Shown: piece by piece, positions 10,935 to 46,295 of the stretch
Numbering within the stretch: the first letter of the stretch is position 1
Layout of the letters: every line of letters starts with the position of its first letter
Translations under genes and position numbers: made by a program
Assembly (NCBI RefSeq): GCF_016026235.1
Contig: NZ_CP065613.1
Length of the DNA: 64,000 nucleotides
Source of the DNA: Escherichia coli
GTDB taxonomy: Bacteria > Pseudomonadota > Gammaproteobacteria > Enterobacterales > Enterobacteriaceae
Strand: one strand, 5' to 3'
The notes under the pieces: generated by a model
Databases searched by the model: none
Told to the model about the DNA's origin: nothing
Seen by the model: the letters and a program-made list of their open reading frames with translations, nothing else

Positions 10935-11186
10935 TGGAGCACCTCAAAAACACCATCATACACTAAATCAGTAAGTTGGCAGCATCACCCTCGTTATTAA
11001 AACTGGCGGAGAATGTGATTCGACATTCTCCACTCATACTAAACACACTGTCACTTGACGCAGGGCTGAAAGTTCTACAGCAACGGTATACCAATATGAT
11101 AATGGTTTACTAAATTTTCTGGGGATCCCTCAGGAGCAGTCCCCCACTCCGGCTTAACACGACAATCGCCTTTCAGCGAAACACAA

Positions 11187-26106: not shown

Positions 26107-26193
26107 GCGAAGGTGGCGGAATTGGTAGACGCGCTAGCTTCAGGTGTTAGTGTCCTTACGGACGTGGGGGTTCAAGTCCCCCCCCTCGCACCA
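26107..26193 (+). tRNA. leuQ: tRNA-Leu (anticodon CAG), copy 1
   Basis: 87 nt GCGAAGGTGGCGGAATTGGTAGACGCG...CTCGCACCA with long variable arm; gene symbol is by position only. Confidence 0.9.
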
Positions 26194-26227
26194 AACGAGG
26201 CGATATCAAAAAAAGTAAGATGACTGT

Positions 26228-26314
26228 GCGAAGGTGGCGGAATTGGTAGACGCGCTAGCTTCAGGTGTTAGTGTCCTTACGGACGTGGGGGTTCAAGTCC
26301 CCCCCCTCGCACCA
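26228..26314 (+). tRNA. leuP: tRNA-Leu (anticodon CAG), copy 2, identical to copy 1
   Basis: exact 87-nt repeat of copy 1, 34-bp spacer; gene symbol is by position only. Confidence 0.9.
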
Positions 26315-40729: not shown

Positions 40730-40874
40730 GGTTTCTCTTTCCTGTGGACCGATGCAAGATTTTCGGCCAGGAAAGGAAAAACTTTATGAATATCCCGCGG
40801 AGATTACGCCGAGTAATTTTATTCACACTCTGAATTTAAAAAGCCATTATTTACATAAATTACTCACAATATAA

Positions 40875-40896
40875 ATATGTGATATGAATCACATAT
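40875..40896. promoter_or_regulatory. CRP binding site upstream of btsT
   Basis: aaatatgtgatatgaatcacatattt contains TGTGA-N6-TCACA in a perfect palindrome, about 210 bp upstream of the btsT start. Confidence 0.6.
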
Positions 40897-41105
40897 TTAT
40901 CGTCACTTAAACGACGCCTTTGCCGCTCAACCGCAAAACTGACCGCTTACATCCCTAAAATAACCACTCAGTTATTTACCTTACTTTACGCGCGCGTAAC
41001 TCTGGCAACATCACTACAGGATAGCGGTCAATTTACCTCCTCAAACGCAACGCAAACCTAGAACGGCTTCGGCCAACTATTAATCAATACATGCCAGGTT
41101 TTACT

Positions 41106-43519: not shown

Positions 43520-44476
43520 ATGAACCCGATTGCAGTTACCCTACTCACCGGTTTTTTAGGCGCGGGAAAAACCACCCTGCTGCGCCATATTCTTAACGAA
43601 CAACACGGCTACAAGATTGCCGTGATTGAAAACGAATTCGGCGAAGTCTCCGTTGATGATCAACTAATTGGCGACCGCGCCACGCAGATCAAAACGCTGA
43701 CCAACGGCTGCATCTGCTGTTCGCGCTCCAACGAGCTGGAAGACGCACTACTCGACCTGCTGGATAATCTCGACAAGGGCAATATTCAGTTTGACCGTCT
43801 GGTCATTGAATGCACCGGCATGGCCGATCCCAGCCCGATTATTCAGACCTTTTTCTCCCATGAGATTTTATGCCAGCGTTACCTGCTGGACGGTGTGATT
43901 GCGCTGGTGGATGCGGTACATGCCGACGAGCAGATGAACCAGTTCACCATCGCTCAGTCCCAGGTTGGCTACGCCGACCGTATTCTGCTGACCAAAACCG
44001 ACGTCGCAGGCGAAGCAGAAAAACTGCGTGAACGCCTGGCGCGCATCAACGCCCGTGCACCGGTCTACACCGTCACCCACGGCGACATCGACCTGGGCCT
44101 GCTGTTCAACACCAACGGTTTTATGCTGGAAGAGAACGTCGTCAGCACCAAACCGCGTTTCCACTTTATCGCGGATAAACAAAACGATATTTCGTCGATT
44201 GTGGTGGAACTGGATTACCCGGTAGATATCAGCGAAGTTTCCCGGGTGATGGAAAACCTGCTTCTGGAATCGGCAGATAAACTGCTGCGTTACAAAGGGA
44301 TGCTGTGGATTGACGGCGAACCTAACCGCCTGCTGTTCCAGGGCGTCCAGCGCCTCTACAGCGCCGACTGGGACCGCCCGTGGGGCGATGAAAAACCGCA
44401 TAGCACAATGGTGTTTATCGGGATTCAGTTGCCGGAGGAAGAGATTCGGGCAGCGTTTGCGGGGTTGAGGAAGTAA
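43520..44476 (+). CDS. yjiA: CobW/P47K-family GTPase YjiA
   Basis: 318 aa from MNPIAVTLLTGFLGAGKTTLL; P-loop and CxCC motif. Confidence 0.9.
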   Translation: MNPIAVTLLTGFLGAGKTTLLRHILNEQHGYKIAVIENEFGEVSVDDQLIGDRATQIKTLTNGCICCSRSNELEDALLDLLDNLDKGNIQFDRLVIECTGMADPSPIIQTFFSHEILCQRYLLDGVIALVDAVHADEQMNQFTIAQSQVGYADRILLTKTDVAGEAEKLRERLARINARAPVYTVTHGDIDLGLLFNTNGFMLEENVVSTKPRFHFIADKQNDISSIVVELDYPVDISEVSRVMENLLLESADKLLRYKGMLWIDGEPNRLLFQGVQRLYSADWDRPWGDEKPHSTMVFIGIQLPEEEIRAAFAGLRK

Positions 44477-44487
44477 TTTTGGATGAT

Positions 44488-44518
44488 GGCCGCCATGGGG
44501 CGGCCTGAATTATTTTTT
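44488..44518. terminator. convergent stem-loop between yjiA and brnA
   Basis: ggccgcc-atgg-ggcggcc followed by tgaattatttttt on the plus strand. Confidence 0.4.
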
Positions 44519-44812
44519 GTTCTGATCGCGCAGCATCGCTTCACGTAAAATTGCGTTCAGGCGAGTTTGATAGCCTTTACCTGGTCGCTTCAACCATTCC
44601 ATCACATCAGCATCAATACGCACCGAAGCCTGAGTTTTCAATGGCCGATAAAACTTACCGCGTTCGGCGTTAGACCATTGCTCATCGCTGGAAGGTGGGA
44701 TATCACTGTAATCAATATCTTCGTCGGATTTATTCGCCAGCGCCTTCAGTTCGGCCTCATGCTGCACATCGAGTGTAGAGGAGGTCCCTCGTTTATGTTT
44801 AACCATGCTCAT
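44510..44812 (-). CDS. BrnA-like antitoxin (ribbon-helix-helix, COG3514-type)
   Basis: about 100 aa from MSMVKHKRG...; C-terminal SVRIDADVMEWLKRPGKGYQTRLNAILREAM is typical of BrnA; start 8 bp after the BrnT stop. Confidence 0.7.
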   Translation of the reverse strand: MSMVKHKRGTSSTLDVQHEAELKALANKSDEDIDYSDIPPSSDEQWSNAERGKFYRPLKTQASVRIDADVMEWLKRPGKGYQTRLNAILREAMLRDQNKK

Positions 44813-45086
44813 AGCGATTCCTCTCTTTACGATCTGCTTTTCGTGCACTGATGATTCGAATAATTTCATTTCCGCTTTCGAAACGGATGGTATGCGCAAC
44901 CAGAATAACCACGATGCCGTAAACCAGGCCGATTGTCTGCCAGCGATACTCACCGTTTTCTATGCGTTCTTGCTGTGACAAATGTTGTGGATCATCAAAC
45001 AATAACACCGCATCTTCAAAGCGGATGCCATGTTTCACCCGATTACTTTTGGCCTTGTTTTCATCCCATTCAAACTCCATTGGCAT
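44799..45086 (-). CDS. BrnT-like toxin (DUF497 / COG2929 ribonuclease type)
   Basis: MPMEFEWDENKAKSNRVKHGIRFEDAVLLFDDP...IRIISARKADRKERNRYE; DUF497 hallmarks FEWDxxKAxxNxxKHG and IRIISARKA; start codon uncertain (45080-45113). Confidence 0.7.
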   Translation of the reverse strand: MPMEFEWDENKAKSNRVKHGIRFEDAVLLFDDPQHLSQQERIENGEYRWQTIGLVYGIVVILVAHTIRFESGNEIIRIISARKADRKERNRYEHG

Positions 45087-45284
45087 AATTGCCATCCCTA
45101 ATTGTATATACAAAAATGTATCTACAATTATTCTGCAATTATAGCGTTGATGTTGGAAATAGCATCACGTTTCGAATAATCAACCATAAAATTGACAATG
45201 AGTAAGTTGGACTTGATTCATCCAATAGAATTTCTCGCCTGACATGGCACACTAAACACCTCGCTGTCGGGTAATGACTCCAAC

Positions 45285-45787
45285 TTACTGATAGTGTTTT
45301 ATGTTCAGATAATGCCCGATGACCTTGTCATGCAGCTCCACCGATTTTGAGAACGACAGTGACTTCCGTCCCAGCCTTGCCAGATGTTGTCTCAGATTCA
45401 GATTATGTCGCTCAATGCGCTGAGTGTAACGCTTGCTGATAACGTGCAGCTTTCCCTTCAGGCGTGATTCATACAGCGGCCAGCCATCCGTCATCTATAC
45501 TACGACCTCAAAGGCCGACAGCAGGCTCAGAAGACGCTCCAGTGTGGCCAGAGTGCGTTCACCGAAGACGTGGCCACAACCGTCCTCCGTATCCTGTCAT
45601 ACGCGTAAAACAGCCAGCGCTGACGTGATTTAGCACCGACGTAGCCCCAATGTTCGTCCATTTCAGCGCAGACAATCACATCACTGCCCGGTTGTATGCG
45701 CGAGGTTACCGACTGCGGCCTGAGTTTTTTAAGTGACGTAAAACCGTGTTGAGGCCAACGCCCATAATGCGTGCACTGGCGCGACAT
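45285..45787 (-). pseudogene. insB: IS1 insB, frameshifted and interrupted
   Basis: split into 86-aa and 69-aa ORF fragments; alignment to copy 1 shows a 1-bp deletion (cgtggccacaaccg vs cgtgcgcaacaaccg) and a stop (ctatactac). Confidence 0.7.
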
Positions 45788-45981
45788 CCGACGCCATTCA
45801 TGGCCATATCAATGATTTTCTGGTGCGTACCGGGCTGAGAGGCGGTGTAAGTGAACTGCAGTTGCCATGTTTTACGGCAATGAGAGCAGAGATAGCGCTG
45901 ATGTCCGGCAGTGCTTTTGCCGTTACGCACCACGCCTTCAGTAGCGGAGCAGGAAGCACATCTGATGGAAATGGAAGCCAC
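45706..45981 (-). CDS. insA: IS1 InsA (variant)
   Basis: 91 aa [37 protein letters not shown]. Confidence 0.8.
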
Positions 45982-46295
45982 GCAAGCACCTTAAAATCAC
46001 CATCATACACTAAATCAGTAAGTTGGCAGCATTACCAAATTTTAATTACACTTAAGGTGTATATTTTCTATGCAAGCCATCAATTAAAGAGGTGTAATGT
46101 TCTGATGACTATTTGTAATCGTTATACATTCTGACCTGGAGTCAGAAGGTATTTCTCTGTCTGTGTATTCGCAGGCAGTGTGGTTGATTACATGAAATTC
46201 AGTACATTTGTCCTTCTCGCCTGCCTTTCGTCATTACCGACGGTATTGAATTTCGTTTTCCCCATTGGGGTTCTCCGGACAAGGAGTTGTTTGTT

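What the first reader, a model, noticed from the sequence alone, without database searches (positions are those of the whole stretch)
44510..45086. BrnT/BrnA-like type II toxin-antitoxin module with toxin-first order
Two small co-oriented ORFs on the minus strand: the upstream one has DUF497/BrnT hallmarks (FEWDENKAKSNRVKHGIRFEDA, IRIISARKA) and the downstream one is a BrnA-like RHH antitoxin (SVRIDADVMEWLKRPGKGYQTRLNAILREAM). The toxin stop and the likely antitoxin start (44812) are 8 bp apart, the toxin-first arrangement typical of brnTA. The ORF track shows a longer 147-aa antitoxin frame overlapping the toxin 3' end, so start choice is ambiguous. Sitting alone in a defence-island slot, it could act as an addiction or abortive-infection module.
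Basis: partly seen in the sequence, partly recalled or inferred. Interest (0 to 1): 0.5.

Follow-up and report, generated by a model that had tools for sequence, protein, structure and literature searches.

The report
Ordinary annotated E. coli brnTA toxin-antitoxin pair
This is a real but ordinary toxin-antitoxin gene pair (brnT-brnA) that RefSeq already annotates at these positions in about 40% of complete E. coli genomes, and whose close Salmonella counterpart has a solved crystal structure.

Summary
Two co-oriented minus-strand genes lie at 44510-45086. brnT (44799-45086, 95 aa) matches Pfam PF04365 at E=5e-24. brnA (44510-44812, 100 aa) matches PF14384 at E=3e-17. RefSeq annotates the same coordinates as "BrnT family toxin" and "BrnA antitoxin family protein".

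One detail is wrong: the genes are not 8 bp apart. They overlap by 14 nt, or by 8 nt if the second ATG is used. The 147-aa antitoxin frame and the 104-aa TTG toxin frame are mechanical artefacts.

The toxin is 83% identical to chain A of PDB 7VD7, a Salmonella Typhimurium toxin-antitoxin complex. It keeps the Lys/His/Arg/Glu residues that the literature ties to Brucella BrnT activity. A modelled BrnA C-terminus has a ribbon-helix-helix fold. A palindrome upstream of brnT is conserved in E. coli, Salmonella and a Klebsiella plasmid, and is a likely operator.

The pair is single-copy next to yjiA in 2112 of 5426 complete E. coli genomes. It lies in the known immigration control region, and a 2025 review already lists brnAT there. 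In this window a decayed IS1 replaces the rest of the island.

Verdict: a canonical type II toxin-antitoxin module, already known, of low interest. Its biological role (addiction, stress response or phage defence) is untested.

The parts
44799..45086 (-). brnT, toxin gene (95 aa plus stop), predicted RelE-superfamily ribonuclease
   Evidence: PF04365 E=5.3e-24, model positions 1-77 of 77. RefSeq CDS 'BrnT family toxin' WP_001297643.1 at the same coordinates. 83% identical to PDB 7VD7_A, E=4e-52, and matches Brucella BrnT 3U97 at E=1.6e-4. K18, H19, R82 and E88 align with Brucella K16, H17, R72 and E78. dN/dS against Salmonella is 0.02.
44510..44812 (-). brnA, antitoxin gene (100 aa plus stop): N-terminal and central toxin-binding segment, C-terminal RHH DNA-binding domain
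44799..44825 (-). Translational-coupling junction: Shine-Dalgarno-like GAGAGGA (44825-44819), brnA ATG (44812), second ATG (44806), brnT stop TAA (44801-44799); 14-nt gene overlap
   Evidence: Read directly from the sequence. The stretch GAGAGGA..CG.TATGAGCATGGTTA is invariant in E. coli, Salmonella and a K. aerogenes plasmid copy. The same 14-nt overlap is called in Enterobacter and Klebsiella loci.
45099..45130 (.). Candidate BrnA operator: 14-nt inverted repeat (45099-45112 / 45117-45130) containing the perfect 12-bp palindrome TTGTATATACAA (45102-45113), just upstream of the brnT ribosome-binding site AGGGA (45099-45095)
   Evidence: Inverted repeat 93% complementary with a 4-nt gap. Only 1 of 2000 mononucleotide shuffles reaches 13 of 14 matches. 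The palindrome is invariant in four brnTA loci, including a plasmid copy whose other upstream DNA does not align. Function is inferred, not shown.
45121..45143 (-). Tandem 11-nt direct repeat (ATAATTGCAGA / ATAATTGTAGA on the minus strand) overlapping a perfect -10 hexamer TATAAT (45143-45138)
   Evidence: Direct repeat found. TATAAT read from the sequence and conserved in Salmonella. One repeat unit is deleted in strain KC-Dl-1. The consensus promoter scan reported no minus-strand site because the -35 is weak, so the promoter assignment is inference.
44488..44505 (.). G+C-rich hairpin between the convergent genes yjiA and brnA
   Evidence: Terminator-like site with 7 G-C pairs. The T-run lies on the + strand, the yjiA side, so it is only a possible terminator for brnTA.
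45270..46036 (-). Decayed IS1 copy bounding the module; not part of the toxin-antitoxin system but explains why it stands alone
   Evidence: IS1 terminal repeats at both ends. 90% identical to IS1A. PGAP marks it 'frameshifted; internal stop'. The flanks TCGCTGTCG and AAATTTTAA differ, so there is no target-site duplication. Homology to brnTA loci that carry restriction genes stops at 45269, and homology to the K-12 mdtM upstream region resumes at 46036.

Best explanation
This is a canonical chromosomal type II toxin-antitoxin operon of the BrnT/BrnA family. It is transcribed on the minus strand from a promoter about 50 nt upstream of brnT.

Inferred from homology: BrnT is a small RelE-superfamily ribonuclease that stops growth by cutting RNA and blocking translation. 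BrnA is translated by coupling through a 14-nt overlap. Its N-terminal and central segment (about residues 14-57) wraps the toxin, as in the Salmonella complex 7VD7. Its C-terminal ribbon-helix-helix domain dimerises.

Inferred from anatomy and conservation: the BrnA dimer, or the BrnT-BrnA complex, binds the conserved TTGTATATACAA inverted repeat that overlaps the promoter and ribosome-binding region, and so represses the operon.

Inferred from the general type II paradigm: when synthesis stops, or the labile antitoxin is degraded, free BrnT acts.

The most likely biological role is a selfish, addictive resident that stabilises the yjiA flank of the immigration control region. That would fit its survival of the IS1-associated deletion that removed the rest of the island. 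The role itself is not shown.
For: Shown by tool results:
- Full-length Pfam matches to PF04365 and PF14384.
- Identical RefSeq annotation.
- 83% identity of the toxin, and a match of antitoxin residues 14-57, to the solved Salmonella Typhimurium complex 7VD7.
- A match to Brucella BrnT 3U97 with K18, H19, R82 and E88 aligned to residues reported as important for BrnT activity or toxicity (papers read).
- Strong purifying selection on both genes against Salmonella, dN/dS 0.02 and 0.06.
- The profile's next PDB hit after 7VD7_B is the NikR RHH domain.
- A conserved palindrome upstream of brnT.
- A conserved Shine-Dalgarno, ATG and overlap junction.
- A single copy at the same locus in 2112 of 5426 E. 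coli genomes, and at immigration-control-region anchors in Salmonella, Enterobacter and Klebsiella.
- Relatives on 766 plasmids, the classic addiction setting.
Against: - There is no experimental data on this E. coli pair. Toxicity, RNase activity, neutralisation, DNA binding and antitoxin lability are all inferred.
- NCBIfam HMMs gave no hit, so PGAP's name presumably rests on other evidence.
- The promoter scan found no minus-strand sigma-70 site at its thresholds.
- Some E. coli lineages have lost or truncated brnT and kept brnA. Within E. coli the toxin shows 5 nonsynonymous against 3 synonymous differences. The toxin is therefore dispensable and may be decaying in places.
- In a related Acidovorax system the antitoxin did not bind its promoter, so autorepression is not universal in this family.
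Confidence: 0.9

Rival explanations
1. The pair is primarily an anti-phage abortive-infection system. Phage infection shuts off host transcription or triggers BrnA degradation, BrnT is freed, and it degrades RNA so the infected cell dies before releasing phage.
For: It sits in the immigration control region (hotspot 36), a recognised defence island that otherwise holds type I and type IV restriction systems. Other RelE-superfamily toxin-antitoxin modules have reported defence roles.
Against: There is no match to any PADLOC model. No paper in the held library reports anti-phage activity for BrnTA. Location in an island is guilt by association only. The same family is common on small plasmids, where addiction explains it, and rare in phage records, 4 of 50,697.
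Confidence: 0.15
2. The module is a decaying or domesticated remnant. BrnT is no longer toxic in this lineage, and BrnA persists as a small transcription factor or simply by drift.
For: Orphan brnA with deleted or truncated brnT exists in other E. coli strains. Five nonsynonymous against three synonymous differences separate this brnT from the Ecol_542 allele. An IS1 lies 183 bp upstream.
Against: Both reading frames are intact. The residues linked to activity are conserved. dN/dS against Salmonella is 0.02. The promoter and operator region is retained intact up to the IS1 end. The identical toxin protein WP_001297643.1 is annotated in unrelated strains, and 1091 genomes match this stretch at 99% DNA identity or more.
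Confidence: 0.08
3. The antitoxin is the longer 147-aa product starting at GTG 44953, which would give a 155-nt out-of-frame overlap with brnT.
For: The frame is open in the window from 44953. It is also open in Ecol_542 and Salmonella.
Against: The extension peptide is not conserved between E. coli and Salmonella. A stop closes the frame 16 codons upstream in the K. aerogenes plasmid copy. The Pfam domain and the 7VD7_B match lie entirely in the 100-aa product. A Shine-Dalgarno-like GAGAGGA sits 6 nt before ATG 44812 and is invariant. Strains with brnT deleted keep a 100-aa BrnA. Homologues are called at 100 aa across Enterobacteriaceae.
Confidence: 0.02

Closest known systems
Salmonella enterica serovar Typhimurium toxin-antitoxin complex, PDB 7VD7 (locus STM4528/STM4529 by the cross-reference in a Salmonella Infantis record)
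   Same: The toxin is 83% identical over 94 residues, and antitoxin residues 14-57 are about 80% identical. Gene order, the overlap sequence, the upstream palindrome and the genomic position next to yjiA (mrr-brnTA-yjiA) are all the same. This is the orthologous locus.
   Different: Salmonella keeps mrr and hsdRMS beside it, whereas this window has only an IS1 remnant. The Salmonella record starts the antitoxin at the second ATG, giving 98 aa. I could not find a paper describing 7VD7. The link from 7VD7 to STM4528 rests on a one-residue difference from the SARB27 protein and on the PDB title.
Brucella abortus BrnT/BrnA (Heaton et al. 2012, PDB 3U97), the founding member
   Same: Same Pfam families and toxin-first operon. 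The Lys-His pair, the Arg and the Glu linked to activity are conserved. The antitoxin is an RHH protein with autoregulation reported for Brucella.
   Different: Sequence similarity is distant (E=1.6e-4, with gaps in the central sheet). Stress induction, the 2:2 complex and in vitro RNase activity were shown for Brucella and are untested here. The original paper is not in the held library, so its content is cited through later papers.
Plasmid-borne brnTA modules (Acinetobacter, Moraxella, Xylella, and small Klebsiella/Citrobacter plasmids)
   Same: Same two-gene architecture and annotation. The 5.4-kb K. aerogenes plasmid copy is 72% identical in BrnT and shares the palindrome and the overlap junction.
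   Different: Those copies sit on replicons where plasmid addiction is the natural role. This one is a long-standing chromosomal resident at a fixed locus.
Other toxin-first RelE-superfamily modules (HigBA, MqsRA)
   Same: Toxin-first order and a small ribonuclease toxin of the RelE/BECR superfamily.
   Different: They belong to different Pfam families and their antitoxins use HTH or zinc-binding DNA-binding domains rather than RHH. Whether BrnT depends on the ribosome is still listed as unknown.

Membership tests
BrnT toxin family (Pfam PF04365, formerly DUF497) | Significant full-length match to the family profile | tested here: met
   E=5.3e-24, 84.8 bits, model positions 1-77 of 77, residues 10-91 of the 98-aa query translated from ATG 45095, which is residues 7-88 of the 95-aa protein.
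BrnT toxin family (Pfam PF04365, formerly DUF497) | RelE-like (BECR) ribonuclease fold | tested here: met
   Tested by sequence against solved structures only: 83% identity to 7VD7_A (E=4e-52) and E=1.6e-4 to Brucella BrnT 3U97. No structure was modelled for the toxin.
BrnT toxin family (Pfam PF04365, formerly DUF497) | Conserved residues tied to BrnT activity or toxicity (Brucella K16, H17, R72; the Glu equivalent to E78) | tested here: met
   The alignment places K18, H19, R82 and E88 opposite them. The residue roles come from papers read, which cite Heaton 2012.
BrnT toxin family (Pfam PF04365, formerly DUF497) | Ribonuclease activity and growth inhibition | not testable with these tools
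   Needs expression and RNase assays.
BrnA antitoxin family (Pfam PF14384, formerly DUF4415) | Significant full-length match to the family profile | tested here: met
   E=3.1e-17, model positions 1-68 of 68, residues 37-93. 3868 cluster representatives match at E of 0.001 or less.
BrnA antitoxin family (Pfam PF14384, formerly DUF4415) | C-terminal ribbon-helix-helix DNA-binding domain | tested here: met
BrnA antitoxin family (Pfam PF14384, formerly DUF4415) | Direct binding and neutralisation of the cognate toxin | tested here: inconclusive
   Residues 14-57 align with the antitoxin chain bound to the toxin in 7VD7 (E=1.4e-16). Binding of this pair itself is not testable here.
Type II toxin-antitoxin operon | Two adjacent small co-transcribed genes, here toxin first, with coupled translation | tested here: met
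   14-nt overlap and a conserved Shine-Dalgarno/ATG junction. The same layout is called in four other genera.
Type II toxin-antitoxin operon | Autorepression through an operator at the promoter | tested here: inconclusive
   A conserved inverted repeat lies next to a perfect TATAAT. Binding is not testable, and the promoter scan gave no minus-strand hit.
Type II toxin-antitoxin operon | Proteolytically labile antitoxin | not testable with these tools
   Needs pulse-chase experiments in lon and clp mutant backgrounds.
Catalogued anti-phage defence systems (PADLOC-DB 2.0) | Match of either protein to a defence-system model | tested here: not met
   No family matched either protein at E of 1 or less.

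The most novel reading that the evidence does not exclude
brnTA may act as an addictive anchor of the immigration control region. Because deletions that remove it kill the cell, rearrangements that turn over the island (such as the IS1-associated deletion seen here) would be constrained to end just outside its promoter. That would explain why brnTA is the sole survivor in 1112 E. coli genomes, and why it also stands alone beside the yjiN-like anchor in Enterobacter. A variant of this reading is that it also provides abortive-infection defence. Neither is excluded by my evidence, and neither is tested.
Probability: 0.15. Interest if true: 0.35.

Novelty: already known. Interest (0 to 1): 0.08.

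Why it matters
It matters little beyond correct annotation. The family was defined in 2012, a near-identical Salmonella complex was crystallised in 2022, RefSeq already names both genes, and a 2025 review lists brnAT among the toxin-antitoxin systems of the immigration control region.

Three modest points of value remain. The start-site ambiguity is resolved: 95 aa and 100 aa, with a 14-nt overlap. A phylogenetically conserved candidate operator is identified, which nobody appears to have tested. The enterobacterial pair has been kept under purifying selection at one chromosomal hotspot since before E. coli and Salmonella split, yet its physiological role is still unmeasured.

Tried and rejected
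- NCBIfam HMMs gave no hit for either protein at E of 0.01 or less. This was uninformative, because PGAP names the proteins anyway.
- PADLOC gave no hit.
- A single-sequence AlphaFold model of BrnA was poor, pLDDT 58.6. I replaced it with a model built on a 74-sequence alignment.
- phmmer of the BrnA C-terminus against the PDB gave only chance hits.
- The consensus promoter scan found no minus-strand promoter. The -10 hexamer was read by eye and supported by conservation.
- Literature searches for '7VD7' and 'STM4528' found nothing. Heaton 2012 and Sibley & Raleigh 2004 are not in the held library.
- The 147-aa antitoxin ORF and the 104-aa TTG-initiated toxin ORF were rejected as mechanical extensions.
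- The 100%-identical 'plasmid' hits of 655 kb and 834 kb look like chromosome-sized records. I did not treat them as evidence of mobility.
- The one close 'phage' hit is a 501-kb Salmonella chromosomal contig, not a phage.

Full report
**What is in the sequence**

The window is E. coli chromosome. It is collinear at 98-99% identity with several complete genomes across yjiX, yjiA, mdtM and yjiN.

On the minus strand between yjiA (ending at 44476) and an IS1 copy lie two small co-oriented ORFs. The upstream ORF matches Pfam BrnT_toxin PF04365 over the whole model (E=5.3e-24). The downstream ORF matches BrnA_antitoxin PF14384 over the whole model (E=3.1e-17). RefSeq genomes annotate "BrnT family toxin" (WP_001297643.1) and "BrnA antitoxin family protein" at positions that map to window 44799-45086 and 44510-44812. 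These are exactly the limits given in the finding.

**Corrections to the observation**

The antitoxin ATG at 44812 lies upstream of the toxin stop (TAA, 44801-44799). The genes therefore overlap by 14 nt (ATGAGCATGGTTAA) and are not 8 bp apart. An 8-nt overlap applies only to the second in-frame ATG at 44806, which one Salmonella record uses.

A Shine-Dalgarno-like GAGAGGA (44825-44819) sits 6 nt before ATG 44812. That sequence and the whole overlap are invariant in E. coli, Salmonella and a Klebsiella aerogenes plasmid copy.

The 147-aa frame is a mechanical extension into brnT in another reading frame. The extra peptide is not conserved in Salmonella, and a stop closes the frame 16 codons upstream in the plasmid copy, while the 100-aa product is conserved throughout. 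Homologues across Enterobacteriaceae are called at 100 aa.

The TTG at 45113 that opens the 104-aa toxin ORF lies inside a conserved palindrome. The ATG at 45095 is absent in Salmonella. The ATG at 45086 is conserved there and corresponds to the first residue of the crystallised toxin chain.

**Relation to characterised proteins**

- The toxin is 83% identical over 94 residues to chain A of PDB 7VD7 (E=4e-52).
- Antitoxin residues 14-57 match chain B of the same entry (E=1.4e-16).
- Foldseek's description names the entry as a toxin-antitoxin complex from Salmonella enterica serovar Typhimurium, released in 2022.
- A Salmonella Infantis contig carries a protein one residue different from 7VD7_A. 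It is cross-referenced to STM4528/STM4529 and sits between mrr and yjiA. The Salmonella pair is therefore the positional orthologue.
- The founding member, Brucella abortus BrnT (3U97), matches at E=1.6e-4.
- In that alignment, K18, H19, R82 and E88 of the window protein lie opposite K16, H17, R72 and E78. Later papers, citing Heaton et al. 2012, describe these residues or their equivalents as contributing to BrnT toxicity or RNase activity.

**The antitoxin's DNA-binding domain**

A single-sequence model was poor. I collected diverse representatives (3868 at E of 0.001 or less), aligned 74 of them and remodelled.

The new model has mean pLDDT 86.6, and 93 or more over residues 60-100. That region shows an extended segment followed by helices 68-75 and 81-99.

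The scores are modest, as expected for a 40-residue domain that folds only as a dimer. The agreement among the hits supports the RHH assignment.

**Regulatory anatomy (inferred)**

Upstream of brnT is a 14-nt inverted repeat (45099-45112 / 45117-45130, 93% complementary). It contains the perfect palindrome TTGTATATACAA. Beside it is a tandem 11-nt direct repeat (45121-45142). Only 1 of 2000 shuffles reaches the same inverted-repeat quality.

The palindrome is invariant in E. coli, Salmonella and the K. aerogenes plasmid, although the plasmid's remaining upstream DNA does not align. A perfect TATAAT (45143-45138, minus strand) is conserved in Salmonella. The consensus scan did not call a promoter because the -35 is weak.

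An operator overlapping the -10, the transcription start and the ribosome-binding region is the usual layout for autorepression by an RHH antitoxin. Binding is not shown.

**Selection and distribution**

Against Salmonella, dN/dS is 0.02 for brnT and 0.06 for brnA, with synonymous sites near saturation. This fits long vertical retention under purifying selection.

In complete E. coli genomes the module occurs in 2112 of 5426, always as a single copy, and on the chromosome in 2111 of them. In every context I inspected it lies next to yjiA.

Some lineages have deleted or truncated brnT and kept brnA. Relatives are annotated on 766 plasmids, mostly from Acinetobacter. They occur in only 4 of 50,697 phage records, and one of those is really a Salmonella chromosomal contig.

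In Enterobacter hormaechei the pair sits beside a DUF445 (yjiN-like) gene. In Klebsiella oxytoca it lies near symE and hsdR. Both show the same 95/100-aa gene calls and the same 14-nt overlap.

**Genomic setting**

The yjiA to mdtM/yjiN interval is the immigration control region, hotspot 36. In K-12 it holds mrr, hsdRMS, symE-symR, mcrBC and several y-genes over about 19 kb.

In strain Ecol_542, brnTA is followed by a restriction endonuclease, a type I system and symE. In the window, homology to that arrangement stops at 45269, where a 767-bp IS1 with an internal stop begins. Homology to the K-12 mdtM upstream region resumes at 46036.

The 9-bp flanks differ, so there is no target-site duplication. 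This points to an IS1-associated deletion that removed the rest of the island. The same brnT/IS1 junction is present in 1112 complete genomes.

A 2025 EcoSal Plus review already lists brnAT, symE-symR and rpn as the toxin-antitoxin systems of this region.

**Function**

The best-supported mechanism is the standard type II scheme:
- a ribonuclease toxin that blocks translation;
- neutralisation by the antitoxin's N-terminal and central segment;
- RHH-mediated autorepression at the conserved palindrome;
- toxin release when antitoxin supply fails.

Family membership and anatomy are shown. The enzymatic and regulatory steps are inferred from homologues.

For the biological role I favour selfish addiction that stabilises this flank of the island. 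Abortive infection is possible, but only the location supports it. There is no PADLOC match, and I found no experimental report. A decaying-remnant reading is unlikely given the intact frames, the conserved activity residues and the low dN/dS.

**Verdict**

The finding is real and correctly interpreted, but it is already known and ordinary. Interest is low.

Noticed in passing
window 45270-46036: A decayed IS1 (90% identical to IS1A, insB interrupted by a stop) has unlike 9-bp flanks (TCGCTGTCG / AAATTTTAA), so there is no target-site duplication. It replaces the roughly 19 kb of restriction and other genes that K-12 carries between yjiA and mdtM. The same brnT/IS1 junction is present in 1112 of 5426 complete E. 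coli genomes. This points to an old IS1-associated deletion of the immigration control region.
   Followed up: partly
window 9925-10989: A second, nearly intact IS1 (99.6% identical to IS1A) lies at 10221-10989, between lplA and deoD. It truncates an ORF (9925-10302) whose N-terminus looks to me like an IS4/IS10-family transposase; that resemblance is from memory, not a search. Strain D2 has no IS1 at this position. From memory, K-12 has yjjJ between lplA and deoD.
   Followed up: no
window 26107-26314: Only two tandem tRNA-Leu(CAG) genes are found here, whereas strain D2 has three at the same locus. The likely cause is loss of one copy by recombination between the repeats.
   Followed up: no
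window ~40790-41091: The hpa (4-hydroxyphenylacetate catabolism) operon that strain D2 carries between tsr and btsT is absent here. The window resembles K-12 and Ecol_542 at this junction.
   Followed up: no
L004 8328-8429 and L005 8011-8460 (E. coli KC-Dl-1 and AR_0089): Some E. coli lineages keep an intact 100-aa brnA while brnT is internally deleted or replaced; in AR_0089 a Fic-family gene and a GmrSD gene follow. These are orphan antitoxins, a typical stage of toxin-antitoxin decay.
   Followed up: partly
L010 (NZ_LT985269.1, 22-kb record labelled a plasmid): A record labelled as a mobilizable plasmid carries the chromosomal segment yjiL-yjiM-yjiN-mdtM-brnTA directly beside sul2 and aph(3'')-Ib/aph(6)-Id. 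This is either capture of chromosomal DNA by a resistance element or an assembly artefact.
   Followed up: no
L011/L012 (Enterobacter hormaechei) and L013/L014 (Klebsiella oxytoca): brnTA sits at immigration-control-region landmarks in other genera too. In Enterobacter it lies next to a DUF445 yjiN-like gene with no restriction genes nearby. In Klebsiella it lies within a few kb of symE and a type I hsdR.
   Followed up: partly
window 44488-44505: A 7-bp all-G-C hairpin lies between the convergent genes yjiA and brnA. Its T-run is on the yjiA side only and runs into the last codons of brnA.
   Followed up: no
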